Positions 17,036-50,288 are shown, numbered from the stretch's first letter. The stretch is 64,000 nucleotides of DNA from an uncultured Alphaproteobacteria bacterium (GCA_944389465.1 CALXML010000001.1:79427-143426), one strand, 5' to 3'. Numbers and translations: made by a program. Notes: generated from the sequence alone by a model not told the origin.

Positions 17036-18913
17036 TTGTTTGTGTCGTCTGCATTTGCGGCCGGATATTCGTGCCCTGCATATAAAAAATATACATCTTG
17101 TAATGCCGGATATTATTTGAATGGAACAGGGGCGGGAAATTCTTGTTCGTCGTGTACGGGTGTGTCGTTTACCAATTATGGTACTGATACCACAACAGAT
17201 TACAGTGGATGCACCGCCACATCACAAACGGTTAGTGGCAGTATCAGTGGTGGTGGTTCGTATACGCAATACCAAACGCGTACCGGTTCGCGTACAGGTA
17301 CACGCAGTAAAAGCCAGACCTGTTATCGTACTGGTGGGGCGGGTGGAACCAGTGGTTCATCTGCTTGTACAGGTATGGGGAATTGCGGGGCGTGGTCATA
17401 TGGCAGTTGGTCGTATGGGGCGTGCAATTACACTGCGTGGGCAAACAGTGGTGCGCGAAAAATAACCTGTCCGGCGGGAACCTATTGGAATGGTTCTGGG
17501 TGTGCGTCCTGTGGCACGGGGTATTATTGTGCGGGCTTTAACAGCGTTGACGAATCGTCATTATTAAATGGTTATGGGCGTAAATCTTGTACAAATGCGC
17601 CGGCAAACGCCAATTACACCGGCAGTGCAACAACAAATTCATGTGCGTGGTCATGCAAGGCGGGCTATTACGGTTCATCCGTCGCGGGCAGTACATCTTG
17701 TGCGGATTGCGGCAGTGGTAATTATTGTACTGGTGGAACACATCGTGCAACATGTGCGTCAACTGTACTGGCCAGTGCGCCAATCCCCACTAACATTATA
17801 TCTGTGTCCAGTGGCAGTTGGTTGGATTTTAATCATGCAACCAGTACATCTGATTGTGTATGTGAATGGTATTTTAGTGATGATGTCAGAACGCAATATA
17901 TGAATCAACGCTTATGCAGTGAAGGGCCGGGGGGAAATAATTATACGCATTATAATTGGTGCAGAACAGGATATTATGCAACTGAACCACTGAATTTTAA
18001 CAATTGGTATAACAACTGTGCGGCGTGCACGAATGGACCGGCTAATTCCACGTACACCAGTTACAGCACCCCATCACAGATGTATGCAGTGGAAAGTAAT
18101 TGCCCGTGGCAATGTAATGCCGGTTTTTACAAAAATGGTAACAGTTGTGTTGCGTGTCCAAGTGCATATCCGTATTCAGATGCGGGTGCAACATCGGTAA
18201 CCCAGTGTTACAGTGGCACAAAAAAACGTGCATGGAACGGCAGTCAAATACCATGTGCAAAGCCATCGGGGTGTGCCACGGTGCAATGTAATGCATGTTC
18301 AAAATCAACGTGTGATTATGTTGCATATGCAAACAGTGCGGGCACTGGTGATGGCGAGGTTAAATCAGGCTGTACCACTAATAATGCGTCGTGTAATCAA
18401 ACGGTTGCGTCGGTTACTGCGGCGTCCGGATATTATGTTAATGGCGTATCCTGTCCGGCGTGCAGTGGGGTGGGGGACGGTTCGTATACTTTGTCTGAAA
18501 ATGGCAATACCGGTGGCAATGCCCAATGTTACAAGATTTGTTCGCGTGCATGTACGCAACAGGCGTGTCCTGCAAATGCCACGTGTACGCATGGCACAAC
18601 CAGTACGTCGGGGGTTCAATATTATGGGGGCGCATGCAATGCGGCCGCGTCAACATGCACCATGTCTTTTGAATGTAATAATGGGTATAACTTAACGTCT
18701 GGCAATATTTGTGCCCAGTTATGCACCGCCGGTGCAACACATTTGAAAACGGGTACTGGGGTCAGTATACCATTATATTCCGCACCGCAATCGGTGCCCG
18801 CAATAAATGTCGGGTATAATGGCGATGTGTGTTATGGCACATTGGCAACCGGCGCGGCCAGTGGGGCATTTAATGTAAAGTACGGCGGTTCAACATATCA
18901 CGCAGTTCAATAA
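17036..18913 (+). CDS. Large cysteine-rich secreted repeat protein (family member; GYYC/CxxC-rich)
   Basis: 625 aa with more than 60 Cys and recurring CxAGYYxxG/CTGG motifs. The ORF-track start is a TTG. The N-terminal LTLFVSSAFAA would be a short signal-like segment if an upstream CTG start is used. The start is uncertain. Confidence 0.6.
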   Translation: MFVSSAFAAGYSCPAYKKYTSCNAGYYLNGTGAGNSCSSCTGVSFTNYGTDTTTDYSGCTATSQTVSGSISGGGSYTQYQTRTGSRTGTRSKSQTCYRTGGAGGTSGSSACTGMGNCGAWSYGSWSYGACNYTAWANSGARKITCPAGTYWNGSGCASCGTGYYCAGFNSVDESSLLNGYGRKSCTNAPANANYTGSATTNSCAWSCKAGYYGSSVAGSTSCADCGSGNYCTGGTHRATCASTVLASAPIPTNIISVSSGSWLDFNHATSTSDCVCEWYFSDDVRTQYMNQRLCSEGPGGNNYTHYNWCRTGYYATEPLNFNNWYNNCAACTNGPANSTYTSYSTPSQMYAVESNCPWQCNAGFYKNGNSCVACPSAYPYSDAGATSVTQCYSGTKKRAWNGSQIPCAKPSGCATVQCNACSKSTCDYVAYANSAGTGDGEVKSGCTTNNASCNQTVASVTAASGYYVNGVSCPACSGVGDGSYTLSENGNTGGNAQCYKICSRACTQQACPANATCTHGTTSTSGVQYYGGACNAAASTCTMSFECNNGYNLTSGNICAQLCTAGATHLKTGTGVSIPLYSAPQSVPAINVGYNGDVCYGTLATGAASGAFNVKYGGSTYHAVQ

Positions 18914-19223
18914 ATTAAAAAACTTGTTTTTATTATCGTCTTAAAATATACTGATTTATGAATCCAAAGGGATTTGGGTTCGGGACCTGAAAAATCCTGT
19001 ATTTAGGCGATGCGGAAACGTATCGTAATCCGACTGAAAAAAACGTCGGCGCGTGTGTTGCGCCGTGTGTTTATATCACCCGATTTAAAAGGTCGGGGAT
19101 TCGCGATTATACAACAGTGGGAAACCATAAAAGTCGCGGGGTCATTCCTAAATATGATTTTTCAATCCCCGACCGCCAATTCCGTGGCGGTTTTTGTTTA
19201 ACAAAAGCAAAAGGGAATTGAAA

Positions 19224-19774
19224 ATGAAAAATCGTGTGTTTATTTGGGGCGTGGCTTTTGCGTGCGCCTGTGTTGGCAATGTTGTTGGGCGAACATGCAC
19301 CAGTTCTGTAAATATACAATGTCCGGTTACAGCGGGTGCAGCAAGTTGTTGCCGTATGTTGAATGAAACCTGTGCAGAGGCGGGCTGTGGCGGTACATCT
19401 GGTGGGGGGATGTGGAAGATTGCGACCCGTGTCCTGCGGCTGAATTGACATGGACGGTAAATCGCTTGTATGGCTTTCAGTACAGAATTTCTGGGTATAT
19501 GCAGGATGCAATAACATGCCGTTGTACACCACAATATATCACGCAATGCATAGCAGGCCGATACGGATTAAGCGTGATAACCACGAACAATATACCAACG
19601 GCTGATGAGGTGGATTGTAAATTTTGTCCGTCTGCTGGTGGGCGGATAAATCCGGCAACATCTGTGGCGGGGAAAAATAATCTTATAACGTCTTGTTATA
19701 TACCGGCCAATGCAACGGGCAGTGATGATACGGGCACGTTTACGGTCAGTAATGATTGTTATTATACAGAATAA
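19224..19774 (+). pseudogene. Cysteine-rich family member with the conserved CYY tail, interrupted by a frameshift in a G6 tract (19404-19409). Either phase-variable or a pseudogene.
   Basis: ATG 19224 with aaaggg RBS encodes the signal peptide MKNRVFIWGVAFACACVG... and the frame closes at 19448. ORF 19412..19774 in another frame ends ...CYIPANATGSDDTGTFTVSNDCYYTE. Adding one G to ggtgggggga gives a continuous ...SGGGDVEDCDPCP... protein. Confidence 0.55.
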
Positions 19775-24748: not shown

Positions 24749-26212
24749 ATGAAAAAAATATTATTATTCATAGTGGCGTTTTGCGGTGTTACAGTGTTAT
24801 CGCATAATGCGGATGCAAAATGTACTTTGTTAAGTTGTGGTGATACAAGTTTTTTTGACCCTAATGGCTGGATTACCGCAGATGTTGGTCATAATCAGTG
24901 TTGGTTTTGCGGGCCTGGGCCAAATTCTTGCAGTGATGGCGACGTTGTCCCGTATCTTGATGGTGTTGGGGATGTAATTGGGTTGTCCCAATGTGCAACT
25001 GGTTTTACAAATAGATTTGAAAATTATGAGCCCGGATATTTTTGTAGTAATTCAGAATTGCAATCAGGCGGTGGCCTTAGTGGCATTAGTTTAGATAATG
25101 CAAAGAAAACATATCGTATTGATGGTGATGCGACTTCTTCGTTTAGTTTGGGTGATTTGGATGCCTTTATTGGTCGGGCATCTTGCATATATATAAAATG
25201 TAATGATGGTTATATGCCGAATGCTGATAAATCTGCTTGTATAAAGGATAATCGTGAATCGCGTTGTACATCAACTGGTGGAACGTGGAATGGCAGTGCA
25301 TGTACTTGTGCCACATCAAAAAATCTTAAGTTGACATCTGATGGGGCGGCGTGTGAATGTGTAAGTTCTGATTATGAATTTGATTCCGCGACCAAGCAAT
25401 GTAATAAAAAGAAATCTGTCATAGACGAAGAGAATCGTCGTCGCCAGCAAGAGGAACAAAACCGCCTGAATCAACAACGCAAGGCCGCGTGTGAACAATC
25501 TGGTGGCACGTGGGCAAACAATCAATGCTCTTGCGACGGGACCAAGAATTTACGTGTGGAAAACAATGTTTGCGTATGTTTAGACGATGAAAACTATGTA
25601 CGCAATGGAGACAGATGTGATTTAACATCTGCGGCCGCATTGCAACAAAAATGCACATCACCGGACAGTCTGGCATCAGGTGCATATTGGGATGATGTTA
25701 ATAAACAATGTCGCTGTACAAATCAACAATATACTTGGAACGGCAGTGTATGTGCAATGAACCCAGCAATACAAAAGTGTTTATTGATTACTGGGGCAAA
25801 TTGGAATTATACAACTGGCCAGTGTTATTGTATGGAAGTTGGAAAAACATTTAATCCCGAGGGTACGGCCTGTGTGGATGCTACATCCGGTGGTTCAACA
25901 GTACCAAGCCCATCACCAGATGATGGCCAAGCCGCATCGCGGGCAAAGATAGAGCAAGCAGTTGCCAAGATGGAAGAAATAGCATCTGGCATGAAACTGA
26001 CGGTGTGGCGTAATGACGAGGGCAAGTTTAACACATCGCGTCTGTTATCAGATTCTATTGCAGGTGTTGTATTGGGAACGGCAGGAGGATTAATAACCAG
26101 TAACGTAGTAAAAAAGAATAACATAGAAGACGGATTTGAAGATATACAATGCACCATAGGAGGCCAAGTAGTTGCCGGATGGGGTGATGAGTTCCGCGTC
26201 GGTATCCAATAA
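24749..26212 (+). CDS. Cysteine-rich repeat secreted protein with a coiled-coil insert and a C-terminal hydrophobic anchor (family member, different tail)
   Basis: Signal peptide MKKILLFIVAFCGVTVLSHNADA. Repeated TWNGSxCxC modules. EENRRRQQEEQNRLNQQRK coiled coil. C-terminal IAGVVLGTAGGLITSNVV hydrophobic segment. The G6 run serves as the SD sequence. Confidence 0.6.
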   Translation: MKKILLFIVAFCGVTVLSHNADAKCTLLSCGDTSFFDPNGWITADVGHNQCWFCGPGPNSCSDGDVVPYLDGVGDVIGLSQCATGFTNRFENYEPGYFCSNSELQSGGGLSGISLDNAKKTYRIDGDATSSFSLGDLDAFIGRASCIYIKCNDGYMPNADKSACIKDNRESRCTSTGGTWNGSACTCATSKNLKLTSDGAACECVSSDYEFDSATKQCNKKKSVIDEENRRRQQEEQNRLNQQRKAACEQSGGTWANNQCSCDGTKNLRVENNVCVCLDDENYVRNGDRCDLTSAAALQQKCTSPDSLASGAYWDDVNKQCRCTNQQYTWNGSVCAMNPAIQKCLLITGANWNYTTGQCYCMEVGKTFNPEGTACVDATSGGSTVPSPSPDDGQAASRAKIEQAVAKMEEIASGMKLTVWRNDEGKFNTSRLLSDSIAGVVLGTAGGLITSNVVKKNNIEDGFEDIQCTIGGQVVAGWGDEFRVGIQ

Positions 26213-30177: not shown

Positions 30178-30217
30178 CGCGCTGTGTGCATGATTTCCTG
30201 CATACAGCGCATTTTTG
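30178..30217 (+). terminator. Intrinsic terminator after dnaJ
   Basis: gcgctgt...acagcgc hairpin followed by ttttt. The 5' arm, aaaaacgcgctgtgtgcat, is repeated verbatim at window positions 3-22. Confidence 0.65.
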
Positions 30218-30218
30218 T

Positions 30219-30506
30219 TTAGTTGCTGTAATAGCAATTTGACGTATATGTATATGTGCCGGTTGAATCAGAACCAGTGGTGCCGGACCGAATATAGCAT
30301 GACGTAATTGATGTCGCGCCTGATGCAGATGTGCCGCCATCGGGGCACAGTGTGCATGCGTTGCCATTTTTATAATATCCTGCATTACATGAAAATGAAT
30401 TTGCATTATAGCATGTGCTGTTTGCAACGGGGCATTTCAGACAACTGCATTCTGATTCGCTGCCGAACGCTGTATTTCGGGTTTCGACACCCCGAATTGG
30501 GAACAC
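30219..30506 (-). pseudogene. Truncated cysteine-rich family member: a C-terminal cassette only (95 aa, no signal peptide)
   Basis: Ends ...CPDGGTSASGATSITSCYIRSGTTGSDSTGTYTYTSNCYYSN, the family tail. GTG start with no leader sequence. Only about 55 nt separate it from the next terminator. Confidence 0.45.
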
Positions 30507-32714: not shown

Positions 32715-33179
32715 ATGAAATGTGAATCTGGACGTTCTATGGTTGAAATGATGGGTGTATTGGCAATTATGGGTGTGATTACAGTTGCCGCAATTGCCGC
32801 AATTTCCAGTGCAATGAATATGCAAAAACATAACGAAGTTAATGATGAAGTTTTGCAAATGGTGACACAAGTACGCCAGACATTTACTGAATACGATGAT
32901 TATTCAAACATAAATAATGCAACAATATTTGGTGCAATTGGAATGTCTAATAAAAATCCGTATGGTGGAACATATGAAATATCTGTTAATCCATCAAATA
33001 CGCGTCAGTTTATAATATCTATTACAGGATTATCAAAATCTGATTGTGAATATTTTATAACCAAGGGTTGGGATGGTTCTGTTGGGTATGAAATGTCGGG
33101 GCGTACGGAAAGTGGCGCAACGGGAAACTGTAATAATGCAAATGGCGAAAATGTCGTAAGTATTACTTATGGTGAATAA
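32715..33179 (+). CDS. Type IV pilin/pseudopilin-like protein (class III signal peptide)
   Basis: MKCESG|RSMVEMMGVLAIMGVITVAAIAAI: Gly at -1 and Glu at +5 fit prepilin peptidase substrates, followed by a hydrophobic helix. Two C-terminal Cys (SDCEYF...GNCNN) could form a D-region disulfide. RBS agagg. Confidence 0.55.
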   Translation: MKCESGRSMVEMMGVLAIMGVITVAAIAAISSAMNMQKHNEVNDEVLQMVTQVRQTFTEYDDYSNINNATIFGAIGMSNKNPYGGTYEISVNPSNTRQFIISITGLSKSDCEYFITKGWDGSVGYEMSGRTESGATGNCNNANGENVVSITYGE

Positions 33180-38388: not shown

Positions 38389-38413
38389 AAATGCCCCGTG
38401 TGGGGCATTTTTA
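38389..38413. terminator. Bidirectional intrinsic terminator (dnaN / convergent cysteine-rich gene)
   Basis: atgccccgtgtggggcat hairpin flanked by A-run and T-run. Confidence 0.8.
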
Positions 38414-39082
38414 TTCTGTATAATAACAGTTTGACGTTATTGAATATGAACCGGTCGTGTCAGAATACGAACCAGTTGGTATATAACATTCGGTTATTTT
38501 GGATGCACCACGTGGGGTTGTGCCGGGGGTATATGTATGCGGCCCCTTGTTATAATCCGGACACCATGTCAGACCGCGTTCTGTACTGCCCGCTGTAAAC
38601 GTTCCGCCGGCGCAATAATAACCACTGCGGCATTGTGCGCATTCATTATTGTTGGTTATATAATATCCCGCATTGCACATTATGCTGCTGGGAACACAGG
38701 TATTAAGTTGTGTTTTATAAAATCCATTTTTACAATAAAAAGTATCGTTATAATATATATCGCATTCGGCATTTGCCGGACATGGTGTGCATTGTCCCGT
38801 TGATGTTGTATTGGTTGGTATGCCATATGTTCCAGTGTTGCAAACTAAACCGGCTGTTCTGTTACATTGGCACCAATTACCAGCTTGGGTTACATAAAGC
38901 ATATTATAACCGGTACATACCGAAGTTGTTGGGTTACACTTTATTTCTAGTTGTTGAAATGATTCTTCTTTGCCACTGCAAGTTTCGTATAATTCGTCTG
39001 TACAAAGTTGCAACGCCCCAAAAGCCGATATTTCTGAAAAAACAAACACACATAATGCCGTGCCAATTAATCGTATATTCAT
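38411..39082 (-). CDS. Cysteine-rich secreted protein with the conserved CYY tail (family member)
   Basis: Signal peptide MNIRLIGTALCVFVFSEISAFGA. Ends ...ECYIPTGSYSDTTGSYSITSNCYYTE. RBS aaaaaggga. Confidence 0.7.
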   Translation of the reverse strand: MNIRLIGTALCVFVFSEISAFGALQLCTDELYETCSGKEESFQQLEIKCNPTTSVCTGYNMLYVTQAGNWCQCNRTAGLVCNTGTYGIPTNTTSTGQCTPCPANAECDIYYNDTFYCKNGFYKTQLNTCVPSSIMCNAGYYITNNNECAQCRSGYYCAGGTFTAGSTERGLTWCPDYNKGPHTYTPGTTPRGASKITECYIPTGSYSDTTGSYSITSNCYYTE

Positions 39083-39094: not shown

Positions 39095-39230
39095 TTTGTT
39101 GTCTAAAACAAATGACCGATTTTTTTCGGCAAAATTGGGAATCAGAAAAATGCAAAAATCTGGGATTTTTATTAAAATAAAAACACCGATGTTAATCGGT
39201 GGTTTGTTTTCGGCATACTTTCATACGTAA
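39095..39230 (-). promoter_or_regulatory. Conserved 5' leader cassette of the cysteine-rich gene
   Basis: Read on the minus strand: atgccgaaaacaaaccaccgattaacatcggtg, then tttttatttt (hairpin plus T-run), then ttttgccgaaaaaaatcgg, then the RBS and ATG. About 85% identical to 50215-50335. Confidence 0.5.
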
Positions 39231-39956: not shown

Positions 39957-40526
39957 ATGGCATCATATATTGCAAATGATATGCGTGTGGGATGGGTTAT
40001 TTCCTATAACGGCAAACGTTATTCTGTTATGTCTATTACCAAGGTTAAACCGGGCAAGGGCGGTGCATTTGTTCAGGCGGACCTGCGCGATATTGATTCA
40101 GGAAACAAGGATAACAATCGTTGGCGTGCCGAAGATAAAGTTGAAAAATTAATGGTGGAAGATATTGAATGCCAATATCTGTATTCTGATGGTACGGACG
40201 CATACTTTATGAATTTGACCAGTTATGAACAGTTCACTGTATCTGTTGAATCATTGGGTGAACAAATGAAATTTTTAGCACCTGAAATGTTGGTCAAGGT
40301 TAATTTTGTAGAGGGCCAGCCCGTATCCGTTTCACTGCCCAAAACAGTTGTTGCAACCGTTGAAGAAACAGAACCCGCATTAAAGGGCCAAACTGTTTCC
40401 AGCAGCGGTGGCAAACCTGCAATTTTGGACAATGGTGTACGTGTTCAAGTTCCGCTGTTCATTGAACAGGGTGAAAAAATCGTGGTAAATACTGAAACCT
40501 TGGAATACGTTGAACGCGCAAAATAA
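39957..40526 (+). CDS. efp: Elongation factor P
   Basis: 189 aa. EF-P family (KPGKGGAF loop region). Confidence 0.9.
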   Translation: MASYIANDMRVGWVISYNGKRYSVMSITKVKPGKGGAFVQADLRDIDSGNKDNNRWRAEDKVEKLMVEDIECQYLYSDGTDAYFMNLTSYEQFTVSVESLGEQMKFLAPEMLVKVNFVEGQPVSVSLPKTVVATVEETEPALKGQTVSSSGGKPAILDNGVRVQVPLFIEQGEKIVVNTETLEYVERAK

Positions 40527-40550
40527 ATTATAATGGCACATCTGCAAAGA

Positions 40551-40850
40551 TTGGCGGGTGTTCATGTAGCGTTTGTACACTTCACACCCGCCAATTTTTG
40601 CATCTATACCATTCTAATTTATTTTATTAATGCTATGTTTTAGCAACTTATGTAACGCTTGTACACTACGCAAATTTTTTGCCGTCATCTATATTATTCT
40701 AATTCATTTTACATAACTGTGCGTATCTGTACCATTCTAATTTATTTTATAAAAGGTACATTTATAAATAATGGCGATTGCTCATGTAACGCTTGTACAC
40801 TACGCAATCGCCATTGTTTACATCTATATCATTCTAATTTATTTTTGTCG
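40551..40850. repeat. Intergenic tandem repeat array with two alternating units. Unit A is roughly catgtaRcgYttgtacac, present in 3 copies. Unit B is catctataYcattctaatttatttt, present in 4 copies. Two A copies are embedded in hairpins with covarying stems.
   Basis: Direct reading: A copies near 40564, 40649 and 40783; B copies near 40601, 40685, 40725 and 40821. Hairpin stems ggcgggtg/cacccgcc and ggcgattg/caatcgcc enclose similar loops. Confidence 0.7.
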
Positions 40851-41135
40851 GCGGAATTTTTCGCAGATTTTTTCTCCCGTCATTTTGGCGGGCGTTTTTT
40901 AATCTTGCATAGTATTTGTGTGTGCGGTAACATACTTTTGCCGGCGGGTGTTCCGCGGGCGGGGTGTGGAAACCCTTCTTTTGCGTCGCATTTTGGCGAT
41001 GATAAGTTAATCCCTGATTTTTGGTCAGGGGGGTCGTGAATATATTGAATAAGCGACACAATTCAAAAGATTGTTTCCAACCTCCTGACCACCAAAATTT
41101 TGGTGGTTTTTGTTTAACAAAAACAAAACAGGGGT

Positions 41136-41735
41136 TTGAAAATGAAAAAAATATTTGTGCCGGCGTTATTGCTGGGGGTGATTGTGCCCAATGCGGTGTA
41201 TGGTGCTGTAAAACCACCAGTTTCAGGTGAAGAAAATGCCTATGTTGGCAAAGAGATGGGGTGGGCCACGTGTCAGTTATGTATGGATAGTGCACTGTCG
41301 TTGCGCGATTGGATATTATCCATGGGCTTTGCGGACGAGTCGTGTTTAGGATTGTCATCTAACCCAGATTACATAGCATACAAAGGCACATTGAGTGAAC
41401 ATGTTACTTATGATGCACAACAATTAGGAATGCCACAAGCAGGCGAGATTGTGAACAGTTATATGGATTCCGTGGCTGCAGAGGTGTGTAATGGCGTTCC
41501 GCCGGCAGGTTCGTGTATGTATTACGGTATGTGTATGTGCGCGGCGAATTATTATCCATATGCTGGTGATGATTGGTACGGTGCGTTAGAGTGTGTGGCG
41601 TGTCCCAGTGGCGGAAAATCCAATGAAAATTCACAGTTTGGTATTACAGATTGCTATATTCCGGCCGGAACAACGGGTTCTGATGAAACAGGAAAATTTA
41701 CGTATTCGTCGGACTGTTATTATACAACGAATTAA
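41136..41735 (+). CDS. Cysteine-rich secreted protein with the conserved CYY tail (family member)
   Basis: Signal peptide MKKIFVPALLLGVIVPNAVYGA. Ends ...DCYIPAGTTGSDETGKFTYSSDCYYTTN. The leader is conserved with that of 19224. Confidence 0.7.
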   Translation: MKMKKIFVPALLLGVIVPNAVYGAVKPPVSGEENAYVGKEMGWATCQLCMDSALSLRDWILSMGFADESCLGLSSNPDYIAYKGTLSEHVTYDAQQLGMPQAGEIVNSYMDSVAAEVCNGVPPAGSCMYYGMCMCAANYYPYAGDDWYGALECVACPSGGKSNENSQFGITDCYIPAGTTGSDETGKFTYSSDCYYTTN

Positions 41736-42704: not shown

Positions 42705-43119
42705 ATTATGTGTCCTTTTATTTTTTTTATCACGTCAATTATATCACAATAGGGTGGGGTGTGTCTGATAAATTTATAGGAATATTTGTTGTATGCAATA
42801 TGCTTGACAATACATGTATTTTGTCATATATTTATAAAAGAACAAATAACCGATACAGAATGTATCAGGCGGTATAATAAAATGATTTTGAATAAAAATC
42901 TTTGTTATATTGATTTTGGGGATATTCCCGATTGGCCACCATGTGACGGATGTCACGTGGGGGGGATAATGGGGAATGAATTTTCACCAGAATCAAATGC
43001 CGCAGATGATGATTTTGTGTCATATAAGGGATAAAAGTCCGGAAATTTTTCCGGACTTTTTGTGTTTTATTGGTGAAGAAACGAATAAACACATAACGCC
43101 AAACCAAAGGGGGCAAAAA

Positions 43120-43578
43120 ATGCGCTTTAAAAAAATAGTGCCATATAAAATAAAAAGAATCCTGCCGATGTTGGGCATTGCCGGTGCATCGTTATTTATG
43201 GGCGGGTGCGAGAAAGATGAACCGTTGCGTGATGTGGAACTGCATTTTAATTGCGATAATTTGTCCGCCATAACAAGTGAAGACCATGGGGATTATTCTG
43301 TCAGTGAATTGGCAAAGGCGTATGCAAATGAACCAACCGTTGGTACAATATATATAGTGCCAGATGGTGATTGGGGAACGTATGAATCCAGTAATATAAA
43401 TGATTTGCGTAAATTGTCATTAGAGCCCTTGTTTGACTATTCGCCAAAATTTAGGGGCAAAGGCGATTTTAATTTTTCCCCCGGTGCGGCATCCAAAGTG
43501 CCCCAAGACAGTTTATGGTTTGTCAGCAAGGGATTTACAATTAATAAATATCGCCCAGCAAATGACTATCAGCGTTAA
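43120..43578 (+). CDS. Lipoprotein, first of two tandem paralogues
   Basis: MRFKKIVPYKIKRILPMLGIAGASLFMGGCEKDEP (lipobox). The C-terminal KFRGKGDFNFSPGAASKVPQDSLWF is shared with the neighbouring gene. RBS aaaggggg. Confidence 0.6.
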   Translation: MRFKKIVPYKIKRILPMLGIAGASLFMGGCEKDEPLRDVELHFNCDNLSAITSEDHGDYSVSELAKAYANEPTVGTIYIVPDGDWGTYESSNINDLRKLSLEPLFDYSPKFRGKGDFNFSPGAASKVPQDSLWFVSKGFTINKYRPANDYQR

Positions 43579-43613: not shown

Positions 43614-44045
43614 ATGAAATTCGCAAAAACAATACCATACAAGATAAAAAGAATCCTGCCGATGTTGGGCATTGCCGGTGCATCATTGTTTATGGGTGGG
43701 TGCGAGAAAGATGAACCCATTACCCCGACCCGAGATGTGGAATTAATGTTTGTAAAAGAGGATTTTAATATATTTGAATCTGGGGTGATAAGGGACTTGG
43801 CCGAACAACCGGATATACGAACTGTTTATTTGGTCCCTGATGGCTCTTGGGTTGCATATGGACATCTTAACATTTATGATTTAGTTAATGATTATCTGCG
43901 TCCAGCAATAAATATATCCCCCAAAGTTCGTGGCAAGGGTGATTTTAATTTTTGGCCGGGTGCAGCATCATTGGTGCCCCAAGACAGTTTATGGATAACC
44001 CAACAGGGGTGGACAATAAATTCACATTTACAAAATCAACGTTAA
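43614..44045 (+). CDS. Lipoprotein, second tandem paralogue
   Basis: MKFAKTIPYKIKRILPMLGIAGASLFMGGCEKDEP. The signal region is nearly identical to 43120's at the nucleotide level. RBS aaggag. Confidence 0.6.
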   Translation: MKFAKTIPYKIKRILPMLGIAGASLFMGGCEKDEPITPTRDVELMFVKEDFNIFESGVIRDLAEQPDIRTVYLVPDGSWVAYGHLNIYDLVNDYLRPAINISPKVRGKGDFNFWPGAASLVPQDSLWITQQGWTINSHLQNQR

Positions 44046-44072
44046 AAAATCCGGCAATGCCGGATTTTTTTA
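44046..44072 (+). terminator. Intrinsic terminator
   Basis: ccggcaatgccgg hairpin followed by ttttttt. Confidence 0.8.
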
Positions 44073-44192
44073 TGCTGAAAATAAACCTTGGTTTGGATTT
44101 GTTGTTTTTATTAATTGACAGTTTGGCGGGAAACGTGCAAAAATTTAATAATAAATATGCCGAATCTAACCCAACATTTATATACGGCGGGG

Positions 44193-45425
44193 ATGAAAAT
44201 GAGAAAGATTTTTCTGTTAATACCGTTATTATTCATATGTACAATTACAACGCATTCATATGCTATTGACCCGACATTATGTAATAGTTATACCACTAAA
44301 GAAGAATGTCCTGCAGGTTGTTTTTACAAAGATGGCAGATGCACTGCATGTGATGTTGGTACATATAGTGACCAAAGCGGGCAAACAGGGTGTAAAAAAT
44401 GTTATCATCCAACCAAGGGCATTTGGGATTGGGCGGACGAATCTGTTGGTCATGAATCAAACGAGTGTCCATGGATTGCAACATGCGCATATAACGAATA
44501 CTGGGATATATCTGGAATTATTGACGGCAGTAATTTTGGTTGTACACAATGTGGCACCAATTATAATTCCAAACTGACAGAAAGTAGTACGTATGAAATA
44601 TCTGGTCAGGGTATAGTGGCTGTTGATGGATTGAAATATTTGCAAGATGCGGTTTGTGATGGAAAAGTGTATAAACTGACATTGGTAAAAAATTTAACTA
44701 ATTTTTTAGAAAAGGATAAATATGCATATGTAAAATATAATGAGGGTTTTTCTGACAGTGAAAATGGTGATTTTCTGTTTGATGGTACTGCACCAAACGT
44801 TACGCCGACGTTTAAGTGGTGGCAGAAATTTGAAGGATATTTTACTGAAAAGTCTGGTGGTTCTATACGATTTAATTCAGATGGTGGAACGGCGCGGACG
44901 CAAACCACACCGACAACATTTACGGGTGATACGACTTTGTACGGTCATTGGGATGAAACGCCTGTGGAATATAAAGTTGAATATTATACTGATTCCAGTA
45001 TGACAACCAAGTTTAGTACAACACAAACCTGTGAAATGGGAATGGAATGTCCTGTCAAAACAGATAAACCGTCGCAATCTGGAAAATTATTTGACCATTG
45101 GGTTTGCGGGGCCGGATGCAGCGGTACTGTTACAGATAATATTCCAGAACCCACAGAAAGTTATTATGACACTGGCCAGCCAATAAAATTATATGCCGCA
45201 TATGCCGATTGTCCAGACGGATATTATTGTTCTGGGGGAAAGCAAAATCCGTGTCCGGCCGGTACAACCAGTGCCGGTGGCGCGTCATCAGACAAGGATT
45301 GTTATATGGTAACAGGAACGAATGGTACGAAATTTTGCGACACCAGTAATGGCAATGAAAAAAGATGCTTTTATTTGCCGTTGGCTACTACATCGGGTGG
45401 AAATATAACTTTTAATCCACAATAA
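44193..45425 (+). CDS. Cysteine-rich secreted protein (family member, variant tail)
   Basis: ATG 44193 after ggcgggg gives the signal peptide MKMRKIFLLIPLLFICTITTHSYA. Cys-rich with CPAGTTSAGGASSDKDCYMVTG... The tail diverges after the CY box. Confidence 0.6.
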   Translation: MKMRKIFLLIPLLFICTITTHSYAIDPTLCNSYTTKEECPAGCFYKDGRCTACDVGTYSDQSGQTGCKKCYHPTKGIWDWADESVGHESNECPWIATCAYNEYWDISGIIDGSNFGCTQCGTNYNSKLTESSTYEISGQGIVAVDGLKYLQDAVCDGKVYKLTLVKNLTNFLEKDKYAYVKYNEGFSDSENGDFLFDGTAPNVTPTFKWWQKFEGYFTEKSGGSIRFNSDGGTARTQTTPTTFTGDTTLYGHWDETPVEYKVEYYTDSSMTTKFSTTQTCEMGMECPVKTDKPSQSGKLFDHWVCGAGCSGTVTDNIPEPTESYYDTGQPIKLYAAYADCPDGYYCSGGKQNPCPAGTTSAGGASSDKDCYMVTGTNGTKFCDTSNGNEKRCFYLPLATTSGGNITFNPQ

Positions 45426-46519: not shown

Positions 46520-47509
46520 TTATCGCAATGTTTGGAATGCGTATTGCTTTACAAACTGTTGTTGTAATTTTTTAAATTCACTGGCTATCTGTGCAATTGG
46601 GCGGCGCGATATGTCGTGTTCGGGCGCGATGCCTGTTTGCTGAATCATTCTGATGCGGGCGTTGACCAATTCTGCATATAATATATCTGTAAAGCGTGCA
46701 AATTTTATTTTGGAATTTTCATCCAATTGTTTGATTGCCCTGTACATTGCGTTTTTGCGGTATGTTAATGAACGTGCGCCCATATGGTCGTATATTTTAC
46801 CAGATATGTCGTAATTTTCTTTGATTGAATTTATGTCTGATGAATAAAAGAATGCGCGATGTAACAAGTTATTAAATTGACGCATATCGGCATGGTTTCT
46901 GTTGGCAATGCCGTTTACTATTTTATTGGCGCGTGCCAATTCGTTGCGCTGGTAAATTCTGGAATATTTATATGCGGTGGTATACAAATCGGTAAATGAT
47001 GCGTGGGGAATTAAAAAGTACAATTGGGCAAATAATGTTGCGGGCCATGGACTGATAATTTTCCAACAGGCATAACGACTTAATTTTGCATCAGGGCCAT
47101 TCTTTTTGGCGATTGTGCCCGATGGATTTTTAATTGCATAGTTGTTTGTAATTTGTATACAGTGGCTGTCACAAAATTGGGCGAAACTGATTTGTTCGGA
47201 TTGTGGTGTTTTTTTATTGTTGGTCAGTTTTTTAAATTCTGGGAAAGAAATATTTTCTTGGACAGTGGCATAAATGCTTTGGTGGTTGCCGACATATGCG
47301 CCATTAAATATATTGTACAAATCAGAAAATAACCAATATTCAGAATTGTTTATATTTTGTGTGTCGCCAAATAATGGCAGAAATGCATTTTCGCCCACGC
47401 TGTGTGTGGATTGTTTTAATTTGTTGAACATAAGTTCATGGAAATTTGATGCCATTGCTTTATACCAATGTTTGCGGTTGTGGTTGTGGGGTGGTTTGGG
47501 CGTCGGCAC
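46520..47509 (-). CDS. Hypothetical protein (about 310-329 aa), possibly phage- or plasmid-associated; start uncertain
   Basis: Long ORF with coding-like composition. No family confidently recognised. An alternative start at MASNFHELMF is possible. Confidence 0.4.
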   Translation of the reverse strand: MPTPKPPHNHNRKHWYKAMASNFHELMFNKLKQSTHSVGENAFLPLFGDTQNINNSEYWLFSDLYNIFNGAYVGNHQSIYATVQENISFPEFKKLTNNKKTPQSEQISFAQFCDSHCIQITNNYAIKNPSGTIAKKNGPDAKLSRYACWKIISPWPATLFAQLYFLIPHASFTDLYTTAYKYSRIYQRNELARANKIVNGIANRNHADMRQFNNLLHRAFFYSSDINSIKENYDISGKIYDHMGARSLTYRKNAMYRAIKQLDENSKIKFARFTDILYAELVNARIRMIQQTGIAPEHDISRRPIAQIASEFKKLQQQFVKQYAFQTLR

Positions 47510-47720
47510 TGACCAATGAATACAGTACAGACGATATTAATAATTGATATGGCACATGCTGTTGTTCGGCCAGTTTTTTTATACTTTCCAATATTTGGTG
47601 TGGAATACGCATATTTATTACACTGTCAGATTTATTGAATGCACGATATGCGGCATATTCTTTCAGCAGTGCTTCTATGTTCATAATGAATAATTGTTGC
47701 ATTACGTTTGGCATACACAA
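47460..47720 (-). CDS. Ribbon-helix-helix (CopG/BrnA-like) antitoxin-like protein; start uncertain
   Basis: The C-terminal MRIPHQILESIKKLAEQQHVPYQLLISSVL resembles BrnA/CopG antitoxins. No toxin partner was detected. Confidence 0.4.
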   Translation of the reverse strand: MCMPNVMQQLFIMNIEALLKEYAAYRAFNKSDSVINMRIPHQILESIKKLAEQQHVPYQLLISSVLYSLVSADAQTTPQPQPQTLV

Positions 47721-47770
47721 TCTCCTATACTGGCGACAATACTGCCGTACTTACAAGTGACTATATCATC

Positions 47771-48054: not shown

Positions 48055-49374
48055 ATGTTTAAAAAGATTTTATCTGTGCTGGTTATGTGCGCGGCCGTTA
48101 TTGTGCCGGCGCGCGCCGAATTAAAGGTTGATATTATTGCGGGGGCCACCGAGCCAATTTCAATTGCTGTGCAGAAACTGGAAACGGTGGGAAACGTGTC
48201 GGCAACAGATGCGCAAATGATACGTGATGTTGTGGATGCTGATTTAAAATCTACGGGATTGTTTCGCATAGTTTCACGTGATGCGTTGCCTGAATTTGTT
48301 GAAATGGGTAAAATGCCTGATTTTAAGTTATGGTCCGCGGTCAAGGCACAGGTTTTGGTTCAGGCAAAATTATCTGCTGAATCGGGTGGGCGATACAATT
48401 TGGAATTTTATGTTTGGGATGTAAATGGGCGTGAACAGATAGAGGCACAAAGTCTGGTTTCGTCCAAAAAATCTGTGCGGCGATTGGCGCATATTATGGC
48501 TGATGCGATTTATGAACGTTTGACGGGCGAAGTGGGATATTTTGATACCCAAATTGTGTTTATCGCGGAAACTGGACCTGTGAAAGAACGGGTAAAGCGT
48601 ATGGCCATTATGGACCAAGATGGGTATGGCCTGCGTTATTTGTCAGACGAGGATACTTTTGTTATGTCACCACATTTTTCGCCAAATATGCAGACTATTG
48701 TGTTTCTGTCGTTCCGTGATGATGACCCGATGGTTTGGACGCTGGATTTGGAAACAGGGGAACAGCGACGCTTGGGTCAGTTTGGTGGAATGAATTTTGC
48801 ACCGCGTTTTTCACCTGATGGGACAAAGATTGCTTTGTCATTGGTAAAAAATGGTATTACGCACATATATGAATATGATATTGCAACAAAAAAACTGCGT
48901 CAGTTAACGTTTGGTTATTCGCTGAATACCAGTCCGTCTTATTCACCGGATGGCAAAAAGATGGCTTTTAATTCTGACCGCAGTGGTAACCAGCAAATAT
49001 ATATTCTGGATTTAGAATCAGGCGAAGTTGAACGTATAACATATGGGGCAGGGCGGTATGCAACACCGGCATGGTCGCCGGATGGGCAATTTATCGCGTT
49101 TACAAAAATGGCTGATGATACGTTCTATATCGGGATTATGGACCCGCGGGGACGGAATGAAAAAATTCTGGCTGGTGGTTGGTATATGGAGGCCCCATCA
49201 TGGGCCCCCGGTTCGCGCCGTGTTGTGTATTACGAAACTGAAAAATCGCTGGATGGTATGGAACGGATGAGTCATATTCGCAGTGTTGATATAACAGGGC
49301 AAAATGTTTATGACATTGAATTACCTGATGGCGTGTATGGGGTTGAACCAACATGGTCGCCAAAATTGCCATAA
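48055..49374 (+). CDS. tolB: Tol-Pal system beta-propeller protein TolB
   Basis: Signal peptide MFKKILSVLVMCAAVIVPARA. N-terminal TolB domain plus a WD-like propeller with repeated SP(D/S)G motifs. No tolQRA lies upstream in this window. Confidence 0.9.
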   Translation: MFKKILSVLVMCAAVIVPARAELKVDIIAGATEPISIAVQKLETVGNVSATDAQMIRDVVDADLKSTGLFRIVSRDALPEFVEMGKMPDFKLWSAVKAQVLVQAKLSAESGGRYNLEFYVWDVNGREQIEAQSLVSSKKSVRRLAHIMADAIYERLTGEVGYFDTQIVFIAETGPVKERVKRMAIMDQDGYGLRYLSDEDTFVMSPHFSPNMQTIVFLSFRDDDPMVWTLDLETGEQRRLGQFGGMNFAPRFSPDGTKIALSLVKNGITHIYEYDIATKKLRQLTFGYSLNTSPSYSPDGKKMAFNSDRSGNQQIYILDLESGEVERITYGAGRYATPAWSPDGQFIAFTKMADDTFYIGIMDPRGRNEKILAGGWYMEAPSWAPGSRRVVYYETEKSLDGMERMSHIRSVDITGQNVYDIELPDGVYGVEPTWSPKLP

Positions 49375-49781
49375 GATTTTTGTTTGGTTTATTCGGTGTT
49401 TGTTTTGCATGGGGCGGGGCATTTGCCACGCCCGCAATTGTTGATTATGTAATAGATGGCGATACGTTTGGGGCGCGGGTATTGTTGCCCGATGATATAC
49501 AGGTTAATGTTCGCGTGCGTATTGCAAATATTGATACGCCGGAATTACATGGACAATGTGATGCTGAAATTAAAATGGCTAATCGCGCACGGGACAGGTT
49601 GGTTGAACTGATTCCTGTTGGGGTGATGGTGGATTTGCGTGATATAACAGATGATAAATATCTGGGGCGGATTGATGCGCTGGTTACATTGCCGGATGGA
49701 CGTGATGTGTCGCAAATTTTGTTAAATGAAAAATTGAGCCGGCCATATGATGGCGGCCGGCGTGGTTCGTGGTGTGAATAA
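49353..49781 (+). CDS. Secreted thermonuclease (staphylococcal nuclease-like, SNase family)
   Basis: Signal peptide, then DGDTFGARV...RVRIANIDTPEL, which are SNase motifs. Overlaps the tolB 3' end by 22 nt. Confidence 0.7.
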   Translation: MVAKIAIRFLFGLFGVCFAWGGAFATPAIVDYVIDGDTFGARVLLPDDIQVNVRVRIANIDTPELHGQCDAEIKMANRARDRLVELIPVGVMVDLRDITDDKYLGRIDALVTLPDGRDVSQILLNEKLSRPYDGGRRGSWCE

Positions 49782-50288
49782 TTATTCTGAATAATAGCAG
49801 TTATTCGTATATGTGCATGTACCGGATGTGTCAGAACAACTGCTGCCACTGGGCAGATAGCATGATGTTATGCTGGTGCTGCCGGTGGGGGATGTGCCGC
49901 CCCCCGGACATTCTGTGCATTGACCTGCAAGAAAGGATGTTGGGGTGCCATAATATCCGGCCGCGCATTTATATGAATATCTGCGTGAACAGGTACATGT
50001 GATTGTGCCGGTCATACCAGTTGGACAATTTGATAGTATGGATGCGGTCCCTGTGGTTATAACACCATTTCTGGTGGTGGTGGTATTTTTGCAGTTACGG
50101 CAAGAGTCGCCCTCGCACGATGAATCAACTGTCCAGTTTGCACCGACAGGCATTTGTGGACACATATAGCATATAATATCCGCATTTGCCGTTGGAATAA
50201 ATATTGTCAGAAAACCACCGATTTTTTTCGGCAAAAAAGGGGAGTAAAAAAATGCAAAAATCTGGGATTTTTTCAAAATTAAAAACAC
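49782..50288 (-). CDS. Cysteine-rich family member with the conserved CYY tail; N-terminus unclear (no obvious signal peptide)
   Basis: Ends ...CPGGGTSPTGSTSITSCYLPSGSSCSDTSGTCTYTNNCYYSE. The ORF-track GTG start lies inside the conserved leader cassette. The first internal ATGs give MCPQMPVG... without a signal peptide. It may be a 5'-degenerate copy. Confidence 0.45.
   Translation of the reverse strand: MFLILKKSQIFAFFYSPFLPKKIGGFLTIFIPTANADIICYMCPQMPVGANWTVDSSCEGDSCRNCKNTTTTRNGVITTGTASILSNCPTGMTGTITCTCSRRYSYKCAAGYYGTPTSFLAGQCTECPGGGTSPTGSTSITSCYLPSGSSCSDTSGTCTYTNNCYYSE

What the first reader, a model, noticed from the sequence alone, without database searches (positions are those of the whole stretch)
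17036..50288. Multigene family of cysteine-rich secreted proteins sharing a conserved C-terminal tail
At least eight genes (17036-18913, 19224-19774, 24749-26212, 30219-30506, 38411-39082, 41136-41735, 44193-45425, 49782-50288) encode Sec-signal proteins of 95 to 625 aa. They are packed with Cys in GYYxxG / CxxC / CPxGG arrangements. Six of them end in a nearly fixed tail of about 45 aa: C..CPxGGxS..G.TSITxCY[IL]PxGxxGSDxTGx[FY]TxSx[ND]CYY[TS][EN]-stop. The passenger portions differ from one another. A hypervariable body on a fixed C-terminal module fits the pattern of a sorting, anchoring or secretion signal. Known examples of that pattern are T9SS CTDs, GlyGly-CTERM and PEP-CTERM, or variable surface antigen families such as Giardia VSPs. 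I do not recognise this tail as a described motif. The genes are dispersed among housekeeping genes and each has its own terminator.
Basis: seen in the sequence. Interest (0 to 1): 0.85.

Follow-up and report, generated by a model that had tools for sequence, protein, structure and literature searches.

The report
Variable secreted proteins sharing a C-terminal domain
A small-genome gut alphaproteobacterium carries a large, undescribed family of exported cysteine-rich proteins that share a folded C-terminal domain of a type usually seen in eukaryotes, and these genes differ between closely related strains by a DNA inversion, a single-base slip and deletions.

Summary
The conserved tail is real, but it occurs in five window genes, not six. 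A sixth gene has a diverged copy and two have none.

The tail is not a low-complexity artefact and does not match any known sorting signal. It is the end of a folded module of about 60 aa. The first half is a TNFR / ephrin-receptor-like cysteine-rich half-repeat; relatives with one more repeat pass Pfam Ephrin_rec_like. The last 25 aa or so (CY[IL]PxG..SD.TG..Y...CYYxx-stop) form a cap found almost only at the C-terminus, with no Pfam or NCBIfam model.

The module also makes up the whole mature part of many 60-70 aa secreted proteins. Elsewhere it follows unrelated bodies, including a saposin/amoebapore-like domain in 41136-41735.

The family has about 1,500 clusters at 50% identity. It is almost confined to Enterousia-like gut Alphaproteobacteria and is present in many copies per genome.

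These genes are the most strain-variable in the window. An 84-bp segment at the 5' end of 17036-18913 lies in the opposite orientation in another strain. A G6/G7 tract splits 19224-19774. Other family genes carry deletions or divergent segments.

Best reading: the tail is a shared folded binding or docking domain on a variable set of exported proteins. What it binds is unknown.

The parts
49785..49967 (-). C-terminal module (cysteine-rich half-repeat plus cap) of gene 49782-50288. This copy has an extra Cys pair (SSC..GTC).
   Evidence: Local hmmsearch with the A3 profile: residues 108-168, profile positions 1-61, E=2e-21.
41538..41732 (+). C-terminal module of gene 41136-41735.
   Evidence: Profile positions 1-60, E=1e-23.
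41136..41735 (+). Full gene: signal peptide, saposin/amoebapore-like helical body (about residues 31-130), then the module. The 5' end is deleted in two other strains and the whole gene is absent in a third.
38414..38632 (-). C-terminal module of gene 38411-39082. It has an insertion before the cap and a cap one residue shorter.
   Evidence: Profile positions 1-61, E=4e-16. The gene is 94-97% identical between strains whose DnaN, Ppa and EF-P are 100% identical.
30222..30389 (-). C-terminal module of ORF 30219-30506. There is no signal peptide, so this is probably a fragment or silent copy. The ORF is absent in strain L125.
   Evidence: Profile positions 1-61, E=2e-24. Upstream sequence. In L125 the window stretch 30195-30455 is replaced by 45 bp.
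19547..19771 (+). C-terminal module of the split gene 19224-19774.
   Evidence: Profile positions 1-61, E=1e-21.
19404..19409 (+). G6 homopolymer tract that puts the signal-peptide part and the tail part of 19224-19774 in different frames.
   Evidence: Sequence. The intact 183-aa homologue P0094 reads ...GGTSGGGDVEDC.... G6 in window, L122 and L126; G7 in L123 and L128.
45210..45332 (+). Diverged copy of the module in gene 44193-45425, followed by a different end (CFYLPLATTSGGNITFNPQ).
   Evidence: Profile positions 1-46, E=9e-4; alignment A1. The N-terminal part gives a sub-threshold Ephrin_rec_like match of 19.0 bits against a cutoff of 23.1.
17036..18913 (+). Largest cysteine-rich gene (625 codons open, 51 Cys). 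It has internal half-repeats of the same type but no cap. In this strain it lacks a usable start and the positively charged start of its signal peptide.
   Evidence: BLASTP to the 30219 module: 57% over 40 aa, E=4e-11. Upstream in-frame reading is TTG CCG AAA TAA.
16920..17003 (.). 84-bp segment at the 5' end of gene 17036-18913, seen in both orientations in related strains. In the inverted orientation (L124) it supplies GGGGGG, then ATG, then MWQKTWISRHKNALKKIHHFFFSFTILTLFVSSAFA, in frame with the gene.
   Evidence: BLASTN: window 17012-16912 aligns in reverse to L124 6449-6548 at 95%. Alignment A5, translations. Window-like orientation in 8 contigs, inverted in 1.
50212..50327 (-). About 116 nt of conserved 5' leader and start region of gene 49782-50288, with inverted-repeat arms at 50196-50231 and 50288-50323. 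A copy lies at 39110-39225 in front of 38411-39082.
   Evidence: the repeat finder D1 (84% identity) and I3. Three independent assemblies end at 50324-50325.
39110..39225 (-). Second copy of the conserved 5' leader, upstream of gene 38411-39082.
   Evidence: the repeat finder D1; 88% identity over 103 nt.
24749..26212 (+). It has no tail and no significant similarity to the others. Its first 150 aa or so cannot be aligned between strains.
   Evidence: Identity between strains is 60-92%.

Best explanation
The tail is the end of an independently folding C-terminal domain of about 60 aa, most likely held together by disulfide bonds. The domain has two parts. The first is a TNFR / ephrin-receptor-like cysteine-rich half-repeat (C..GYY...C..CP.GG.S...IT.C). 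The second is a lineage-specific cap of about 25 aa (Y[IL]PxG..SD.TG..Y...CYYxx-COOH).

The domain defines a large, uncharacterised family of Sec-exported proteins in Enterousia-like gut Alphaproteobacteria (order Rs-D84). These bacteria have genomes under about 1 Mb and are thought to depend on partner organisms.

The domain occurs alone as small secreted proteins. It also occurs at the C-terminus of unrelated bodies: stacks of the same cysteine-rich half-repeat, novel cysteine-rich sequences, and saposin/amoebapore-like domains.

Inferred mechanism: the proteins cross the inner membrane by Sec and fold in the periplasm. The conserved domain then acts as a common binding or docking handle. 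It would either hold the protein on the bacterium's own surface or export machinery, or bind a conserved target on a partner or host cell. The body supplies the variable activity.

The genes look like phase-variable loci, and each strain carries a different set of intact copies. In this window 17036-18913 (segment orientation), 19224-19774 (G6 frameshift) and 30219-30506 (no signal peptide) appear to be off.

Shown here: the domain architecture, the family's size, distribution and C-terminal position, the fold class, the saposin-like body, and the differences between strains. Inferred: the disulfides, export beyond the periplasm, the docking function, and whether the switching is reversible.
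For: Domain rather than tag:
- AF2 gives pLDDT 89-93 across the module.
- Relatives P0019, P0020, P0022 and P0024 pass the Pfam Ephrin_rec_like cutoff (28.8-36.4 bits against 23.1). Those matches end exactly at the 'IT.C' of the tail.
- Cap positions 9 and 16 co-vary. In 186 distinct tails, G pairs with an aromatic 56 times and an aromatic pairs with G 54 times. G/G never occurs, and Cys appears only as a C/C pair.
- The module stands alone as the mature part of 75-99 aa precursors seen on up to 52 contigs.

Family size and position:
- 1,539 cluster representatives at E<=1e-3 and 292 at E<=1e-10.
- 108 of 120 genomic copies end 0-2 residues after CYY.
- The cap half is C-terminal in 158 cases and internal in 11, whereas profile positions 1-36 recur as internal repeats.
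- A crude test finds signal-peptide-like N-termini in 223 of 271 family members.

Lineage:
- Genome hits are almost all Alphaproteobacteria, 'Rickettsiales' or Candidatus Enterousia gut MAGs, with up to 9 or more copies per MAG.
- The biology of this lineage is described in PMC12306168.

Unrelated bodies:
- The body of 41136-41735 is a confident helical bundle that best fits amoebapore A and caenopore-5 over their full lengths.
- P0110 passes Pfam SapB_2.
- Among 133 tail-bearing representatives the only recurrent Pfam family is Ephrin_rec_like, in 21 of them.

Variability:
- Housekeeping proteins are 99-100% identical between strains. The family genes are 60-98% identical.
- The strains also differ by the inverted segment, the G6/G7 tract and gene-level deletions.
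Against: - Nothing here shows where the proteins end up (periplasm, surface or medium), that disulfides form, or what the domain binds. These bacteria reportedly lack a respiratory chain, so how periplasmic disulfides would be made is an open question.
- The cap could be just a structural end-piece of the repeat stack.
- The inverted orientation was seen in only 1 of 9 contigs, and from a different sample. It may be a fixed strain difference rather than a reversible switch. No recombinase gene was identified in the window.
- The TcpQ-secretin pair next to the 15380-18913 cluster is not linked to family genes in the other genomic loci examined (L005-L119).
Confidence: 0.55

Rival explanations
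1. The tail is a C-terminal secretion, sorting or anchoring signal. A dedicated machine would recognise the cap ending in CYYxx-COOH. It would then move the protein across the outer membrane or attach it there, possibly removing the cap.
For: The cap is almost strictly at the C-terminus (158 against 11), and the distance to the stop codon is tightly constrained (84 of 120 copies have exactly 2 residues after CYY). The cap is far better conserved than the bodies and is attached to unrelated folds. The proteins need some route beyond the periplasm, and a TcpQ-secretin pair lies beside one cluster.
Against: - There is no hydrophobic helix or basic cluster, and no NCBIfam sorting-signal or T9SS-CTD model matches.
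- The cap is part of a confidently folded domain with co-varying contact positions.
- The module alone forms whole mature proteins.
- Zero, one or two residues after CYY are all tolerated.
- No processing enzyme or conserved neighbouring gene was found. The secretin is not linked to family genes at other loci.
Confidence: 0.17
2. The module is itself the active part. It would be a small secreted ligand, decoy or toxin-like domain that binds a host or protist molecule, for example mimicking eukaryotic TNFR/Eph-type cysteine-rich domains. The longer proteins would be N-terminal elaborations of it.
For: Stand-alone forms are abundant and widespread (P0003 on 33 contigs, P0009 on 52). Ephrin_rec_like is regarded as a eukaryotic domain with only rare bacterial cases attributed to horizontal transfer (PMC6993872). 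A second eukaryote-type extracellular fold, saposin/amoebapore, is fused to it. The organisms are host-associated with reduced genomes.
Against: There is no evidence of any host target, and similarity to true TNFR or Eph domains is remote. In families with a conserved end and variable remainder, the conserved end is more often the anchor than the effector; this is general knowledge and was not tested here.
Confidence: 0.18
3. The cap is only the structural end-piece of a cysteine-rich repeat stack and has no separate function. The family consists of structural envelope or periplasmic proteins, and the strain differences reflect relaxed selection and gene decay in a shrinking genome.
For: Profile positions 1-36 recur as internal repeats in many members. 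Three of the eight window genes look non-functional. Deletions remove whole genes in related strains.
Against: - Cap residues that are probably solvent-exposed (the PSGTTGSD.TG motif) stay conserved across species whose bodies cannot be aligned.
- The cap also follows a non-repeat saposin-like body.
- The 625-codon frame of 17036-18913 stays open in the 'off' strains.
- Coding density in this lineage is reported as normal, with no build-up of pseudogenes (PMC12306168).
Confidence: 0.08
4. The tail similarity is a compositional artefact of Cys/Gly/Thr/Ser-rich sequence.
For: The proteins are 5.5-11% cysteine and rich in G, S and T.
Against: The pattern gives 3 window hits against 0 in 100 shuffles. 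Profile E-values reach 1e-24. Hundreds of database relatives share the same register and end point.
Confidence: 0.01

Closest known systems
Ephrin_rec_like (Pfam PF07699, formerly GCC2_GCC3) and TNFR-type cysteine-rich domains
   Same: The spacing C..G[YT]Y...C..CP.G...C is shared. Relatives with two half-repeats pass the Pfam cutoff. The best structural neighbours are the cysteine-rich domains of 4-1BB, OX40, EDAR, HVEM, EphA2/B2 and CaSR/T1R. Both are extracellular and cysteine-rich, and both act as protein-binding stalks (general knowledge).
   Different: This family is bacterial and lineage-specific, whereas PF07699 is regarded as eukaryotic (PMC6993872). The family is defined by an extra 25-aa cap found only at the C-terminus, which no model covers. 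The window tails do not reach the Pfam cutoff on their own. Structural scores are not significant.
Giardia variant-specific surface proteins (VSPs)
   Same: Both are multigene families of CXXC/GYY-rich exported proteins with variable bodies and a conserved C-terminus, and both vary between strains. Weak sub-threshold Pfam VSP matches occur in relatives.
   Different: VSPs end in a transmembrane helix plus a CRGKA cytoplasmic tail. Here the end is a soluble folded domain. No member reaches the VSP cutoff (best 23.4 bits against 31.4). The ways expression differs between strains here are changes in the DNA (inversion, homopolymer length, deletion).
Campylobacter fetus Sap S-layer protein family (from general knowledge, not examined here)
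   Same: Paralogous surface proteins share one conserved terminal domain, which anchors them to the cell's own envelope, and have variable remainders. Expression is switched by DNA inversion.
   Different: In Sap the conserved end is N-terminal, the proteins are large S-layer subunits exported by a type I system without Sec signals, and one promoter moves between cassettes. Here the conserved domain is C-terminal, cysteine-rich and Sec-dependent, and each gene has its own 5' region.
C-terminal sorting domains (PEP-CTERM, GlyGly-CTERM, LPXTG, T9SS CTD)
   Same: A conserved C-terminal element sits on many otherwise unrelated exported proteins within one lineage.
   Different: The defining features are absent: motif plus transmembrane helix plus basic tail, or an 80-100 aa beta-sandwich. 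No NCBIfam match and no cognate enzyme was seen. The module can be the whole mature protein.
Saposin-like pore-forming proteins (amoebapore A, caenopore-5); applies to the body of 41136-41735 only
Intragenic invertons and contingency loci of gut bacteria (PMC10028968, PMC11868660)
   Same: A short invertible segment overlaps the 5' end of a coding sequence for a surface-type protein. Homopolymer tracts set the reading frame.
   Different: Only one contig shows the alternative orientation. The flanking inverted repeats are short and imperfect (AAAAGGGT / ACCACTTTT). No recombinase was identified, and reversibility within one population has not been shown.

Membership tests
Ephrin_rec_like (PF07699) / TNFR-like cysteine-rich domain | Pfam HMM score at or above the gathering cutoff (23.1 bits) | tested here: inconclusive
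   Window proteins: no tail reaches the cutoff. The best score is 19.0 bits, on the N-terminal part of 44193-45425. Family relatives P0019, P0020, P0022 and P0024 score 28.8-36.4 bits, and those matches end at the tail's 'IT.C'. Of 133 tail-bearing representatives, 21 match at E<=1e-3. Membership therefore holds by chained homology only.
Ephrin_rec_like (PF07699) / TNFR-like cysteine-rich domain | Fold: small disulfide-stabilised beta-hairpin module like the TNFR and Eph cysteine-rich domains | tested here: inconclusive
Ephrin_rec_like (PF07699) / TNFR-like cysteine-rich domain | Disulfide connectivity typical of the domain | not testable with these tools
This needs mass spectrometry or a solved structure.
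PEP-CTERM, GlyGly-CTERM, LPXTG and related sortase/exosortase signals | Short motif followed by a hydrophobic transmembrane helix and a basic cluster at the extreme C-terminus | tested here: not met
   The tails end ...TG.[FY]TY..[ND]CYY[ST][EN]-stop and are hydrophilic, with no helix and no Arg/Lys cluster.
PEP-CTERM, GlyGly-CTERM, LPXTG and related sortase/exosortase signals | Match to the curated NCBIfam/TIGRFAM sorting-signal models | tested here: not met
   NCBIfam scan of the window proteins at E<=1 returned 0 families.
PEP-CTERM, GlyGly-CTERM, LPXTG and related sortase/exosortase signals | Cognate sortase, exosortase or rhombosortase encoded in the genome | not tested
   Only the 64-kb window and short related loci were available. 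No such gene is evident among the window ORFs.
T9SS C-terminal domain | Beta-sandwich CTD of about 80-100 aa matching TIGR04183 or TIGR04131 | tested here: not met
   No NCBIfam match. The model is a cysteine-rich hairpin domain of about 55 aa.
T9SS C-terminal domain | Host encodes a T9SS (Bacteroidota lineage) | not tested
   The carriers are labelled as Alphaproteobacteria MAGs. Absence of T9SS genes was not checked genome-wide.
Giardia VSP (PF03302) | Pfam score at or above 31.4 bits, plus a C-terminal transmembrane helix and CRGKA | tested here: not met
   The best relative scores 23.4 bits and the window proteins give no hit. There is no transmembrane helix or CRGKA.
Saposin-like proteins (body of 41136-41735) | Compact 4-5 helix bundle with conserved Cys pairs; match to SapB models or structures | tested here: inconclusive
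Invertible-DNA phase switch (inverton) | Both orientations of the segment found in natural populations | tested here: met
   Window-like orientation in 8 contigs and inverted in L124, with flanks 97-98% identical. The two orientations come from different samples, not from one population.
Invertible-DNA phase switch (inverton) | Inversion changes expression or the coding sequence | tested here: met
   The inverted form places GGGGGG, ATG and a complete signal peptide in frame. The window form has an in-frame TAA and lacks the positively charged start of the signal peptide. This is a prediction from sequence only.
Invertible-DNA phase switch (inverton) | Flanking inverted repeats and a site-specific recombinase | tested here: inconclusive
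   The repeats at the junctions are short and imperfect (AAAAGGGT / ACCACTTTT). No recombinase was recognised among the window ORFs that were inspected or scanned with Pfam. The rest of the genome was not available.

The most novel reading that the evidence does not exclude
The CYYxx-terminated cap domain is a new kind of C-terminal handle. It would dock a phase-variable set of eukaryote-like exported proteins, including TNFR-like stalks and amoebapore-like membrane-active domains, onto the surface of ultra-small, partner-dependent gut Alphaproteobacteria, or onto a conserved receptor of their host or protist partner. That would make this family the main interface of an uncultured symbiont or parasite lineage with its partner.
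Probability: 0.25. Interest if true: 0.8.

Novelty: new variant of a known kind. Interest (0 to 1): 0.58.

Why it matters
Enterousia-like bacteria of the order Rs-D84 are widespread in human and animal guts. They have genomes under about 1 Mb and lack standard transporters, and nobody knows what they live on or attach to (PMC12306168).

Such small genomes nevertheless carry many copies of one exported protein family. The family is built from domain types otherwise typical of eukaryotic cell surfaces, its genes are the fastest-changing in the region, and at least one appears to be switchable. That makes it the obvious candidate for how these organisms interact with a partner.

The family also gives three concrete handles for experiments:
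- a 60-aa domain that can be expressed and used as a probe;
- an amoebapore-like member whose membrane activity can be assayed;
- defined DNA switches whose state can be read in existing metagenomes.

It also greatly expands the known bacterial occurrence of Ephrin_rec_like-type domains and supplies a C-terminal cap that deserves its own family model.

Tried and rejected
- The search for related loci with the tail alignment failed because no stretch was conserved enough. It was replaced by a degenerate DNA pattern scan.
The pattern detects only about half of the tails (3 of the 5 in the window).
- Scanning JGI metagenome contigs for the right-hand junction of the invertible segment gave 6 unrelated chance matches from marine and other samples. 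Orientation frequencies therefore could not be measured that way.
- The afdb50 fold library was not available.
- A sequence search of the PDB with the tail profile returned only chance-level NifU matches, E 0.3-0.5.
- Rfam found nothing in the conserved 5' leaders, only one tRNA in the window.
- Linkage of family genes to the TcpQ-secretin pair, the pilin-like gene or the Ala-rich family was tested in the other genomic loci (L005-L119). None was found, apart from 3 pilin-like hits.
- Gene conversion between tails was considered and rejected, because synonymous sites are randomised.
- A lipoprotein reading was considered and rejected by inspection. The predicted cleavage sites are AxA followed by A/D then C, with no hydrophobic residue three positions before the Cys.
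- PF26010 (DUF8003), listed in precomputed annotations, is only a weak hit on three relatives and is not in the local Pfam copy.
- A few carrier contigs are labelled Bacteroides fragilis, Muribaculaceae, Bacillota or Saccharimonadia. Two of these (L052, L069) are chance matches in short ORFs. The others were taken to be probable binning or labelling errors, without checking.

Full report
**1. What is in the sequence**

- 19412-19774(+)
- 30219-30506(-)
- 38411-39082(-)
- 41136-41735(+)
- 49782-50288(-)

In a MAFFT alignment 15 columns are invariant. Pairwise BLASTP E-values between tails are 1e-13 to 1e-25. A 72-nt degenerate DNA pattern for the cap hits three times in the window and never in 100 shuffles.

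The tails are only 50-72% identical as DNA. In codons that encode the same amino acid, third positions agree in just 36-63% of cases. The similarity is therefore maintained on the protein. It is not a DNA repeat, not recent gene conversion and not low complexity.

Several details in the finding need correction:
- 44193-45425 has only a diverged copy with a different end.
- 17036-18913 and 24749-26212 have no tail.
- 19224-19774 is two ORFs in different frames, split at a G6 run at 19404-19409.
- 30219-30506 has no signal peptide.
- 17036-18913 lacks a usable start in this strain.

**2. What the tail is**

Neither Pfam nor NCBIfam gives a significant hit on the window tails.

A profile search of 5.8 billion clustered proteins returned 27 relatives. 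Most are 75-131 aa proteins consisting of a signal peptide followed by nothing but this module. They come from Candidatus Enterousia, 'Rickettsiales' and Alphaproteobacteria MAGs.

Relatives that carry one more half-repeat pass the Pfam Ephrin_rec_like (PF07699) cutoff, and the match ends exactly at the 'IT.C' of the tail. The last 25 or so (Y[IL]PxG..SD.TG..Y...CYYxx) are family-specific.

Two cap positions behave like contacting residues. Across 186 distinct tails, when one position is Gly the other is aromatic (56 and 54 cases), G/G never occurs, and Cys appears only as a pair. The window gene 49782-50288 carries such a pair.

**3. The family**

An exhaustive HMMER search of 1.84 billion cluster representatives found 1,539 at E<=1e-3 and 292 at E<=1e-10. 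Most are 80-290 aa with the whole module at the extreme C-terminus.

A local domain analysis separates the two halves of the module:
- Profile positions 1-36 recur as internal tandem repeats, and also match giant repeat proteins that are probably eukaryotic.
- The cap half is C-terminal in 158 copies and 'internal' in 11. Most of those 11 lie within 10-37 residues of the end.

Almost all are gut MAGs labelled Alphaproteobacteria, Rickettsiales or Candidatus Enterousia, with up to nine or more copies per MAG. In 108 of 120 copies only 0-2 residues follow CYY.

The published description of this lineage (order Rs-D84) reports genomes mostly under 1 Mb, no TCA cycle or respiratory chain, no standard transporters, and many hypothetical membrane proteins (PMC12306168).

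The window is 100% identical to ENA ERZ28614354 scaffold_207 over 10161-41355.

**4. The bodies**

Among 133 tail-bearing representatives the only recurrent Pfam family is Ephrin_rec_like, in 21. Two match Saposin B, and there are no enzymes or classical adhesin domains.

I modelled 41136-41735 using 14 orthologues at 50-92% identity. Residues 31-130 form a confident helical bundle with pLDDT 83-96.

- two nematode saposin-like proteins

A different family member, P0110, passes Pfam SapB_2.

So the same C-terminal module follows at least two unrelated kinds of body. That favours a shared-handle role over a mere end-piece of a repeat stack.

**5. Strain variation and switches**

I fetched the same locus from other metagenomes. 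Housekeeping proteins (DnaN, Ppa, EF-P, PlsY, GyrB, DnaJ) are 99-100% identical between strains. The cysteine-rich genes diverge much more:
- 38411-39082: 94-97%
- 17036-18913: 81-98%
- 24749-26212: 60-92%, with an N-terminus that cannot be aligned

Whole genes also come and go:
- 41136-41735 has lost its 5' end in two strains and is absent in a third.
- 30219-30506 is absent in one strain.
- 19224-19774 is intact with G7 in L123 and L128, and is split with G6 in the window and L126.

The most striking difference is an 84-bp segment at 16920-17003, at the 5' end of 17036-18913, which is inverted in L124.
- In the window orientation the gene's own start reads TTG CCG AAA TAA. That stop leaves only the hydrophobic half of a signal peptide.
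- In the inverted orientation a GGGGGG run plus ATG gives MWQKTWISRHKNALKKIHHFFFSFTILTLFVSSAFA / AGYSC in frame.
- L123 reaches an in-frame start in a third way. It has a 1.56-kb deletion between two direct copies of the start motif, plus T7 instead of T8.
- Eight contigs have the window orientation and one the inverted orientation.

The motif ATGCCGAA(A/T).AAAC is the start codon plus the first residues of the family's signal peptides (MPK..., MPN.NGR...). It occurs in pairs about 85 nt apart, with core sequences that are inverted relative to each other. Such pairs lie in front of 15380, 17036, 44193 and 49782. Similar pairs occur in other species at loci L041, L078 and L081.

Intragenic invertons and homopolymer contingency loci have precedents in gut bacteria (PMC10028968, PMC11868660).

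I did not find a recombinase gene in the window. I also could not show both states within one population.

**6. Interpretation**

The tail is a folded domain, not a linear sorting tag. It lacks every defining feature of the PEP-CTERM, GlyGly-CTERM, LPXTG and T9SS-CTD signals, and VSP membership fails.

Four observations point to a function of its own that is common to all members:
- It is strictly at the C-terminus.
- It is conserved across species whose bodies cannot be aligned.
- It is attached to unrelated bodies.
- It also occurs alone.

I think that function is most likely binding or docking. The target could be the bacterium's own surface or export apparatus, or a conserved molecule on a partner cell. 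The variable bodies would provide the diversity, and DNA-level switches and deletions would change which copies are intact.

I put 0.55 on this overall picture. The structural and family-level statements are well supported. The docking role, the export route, the disulfides and the reversibility of the switches are all inferred.

The rival readings are a new secretion or anchoring signal (0.17), the module itself being the active ligand or decoy (0.18), a purely structural cap in a decaying family (0.08), and a compositional artefact (0.01).

**7. Novelty and score**

The fold class is known, and phase variation of surface proteins is ordinary. Three things appear to be undescribed:
- a family of about 1,500 clusters of Ephrin_rec_like-type proteins in bacteria, for a domain regarded as eukaryotic (PMC6993872);
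- the family's C-terminal cap, which no model covers;
- its fusion to saposin-like domains.

All of this sits in a lineage whose biology is otherwise unknown. I rate it a new variant of a known kind, with interest 0.58.

Noticed in passing
window 16920-17003 (flanks 16912-16919 and 17004-17012): An 84-bp segment at the 5' end of gene 17036-18913 is inverted in another strain (L124). The inverted form supplies a ribosome-binding-like GGGGGG, an ATG and the first part of the signal peptide. The window form has an in-frame TAA at 16997-16999.
   Followed up: yes
window 19404-19409: The G6 tract frameshifts gene 19224-19774. Other strains have G7 and an intact 183-aa protein (P0094).
   Followed up: yes
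window 15313-15427, 16898-17016, 44068-44184, 50196-50323, 39110-39225; also L041, L078, L081: Copies of the start motif ATGCCGAA(A/T).AAAC occur in pairs about 85 nt apart, with core sequences inverted relative to each other, in front of several exported-protein genes. These may be further invertible segments. In L123 a 1.56-kb deletion joins the motif copies at 15401 and 16989.
   Followed up: partly
window 19143-19212 and 41059-41128: Genes 19224-19774 and 41136-41735 share a conserved 70-nt upstream element: a hairpin followed by GGTTTTTGTTTAACAAAA. There is no Rfam match.
   Followed up: partly
window 40520-40860: Three or four copies of a hairpin-containing repeat of about 95-120 nt lie between efp and 41136-41735. 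The deletions seen in other strains begin within or beside this repeat array.
   Followed up: partly
window 54660-57218, 57230-58951, 58962-60404, 60516-62093 and 15380-15853: A second surface-type family: signal peptide, then a conserved 'IAS.GYVD' motif, then long Ala-rich coiled-coil-like repeats. Two of the long proteins (57230-58951 and 58962-60404) end with a conserved pair of cysteines. The ATGCCGAA motif also precedes the gene at 60516.
   Followed up: no
window 12644-13555, 13586-15214, 32715-33179: TcpQ-like protein and a lipoprotein-type secretin (Pfam E 5e-18 and 6e-14), and a separate pilin-like gene with a weak N-methylation motif. This is possible export machinery. It is not linked to family genes in the other loci examined (L005-L119).
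   Followed up: partly
window 24771-25296: The first 150 codons or so of the exported cysteine-rich gene 24749-26212 cannot be aligned between strains that are 98-99% identical on both sides.
   Followed up: partly
window 42976-43578 and 43614-44045: Tandem paralogues share near-identical signal-peptide regions (...MGGCEKDEP, probably lipoproteins) and C-terminal motifs. No Pfam hits.
   Followed up: no
window 15856-16833: A 325-aa glycine-rich protein (GGxGG repeats) with no signal peptide and no Pfam hit, starting 3 nt after the end of 15380-15853. It is partly or wholly deleted in strains L124 and L123.
   Followed up: no
window 46520-47509 and 47460-47720: A CopG-antitoxin-like small gene overlaps a 329-aa ORF that has no Pfam match. 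This may be a toxin-antitoxin or mobile remnant.
   Followed up: no
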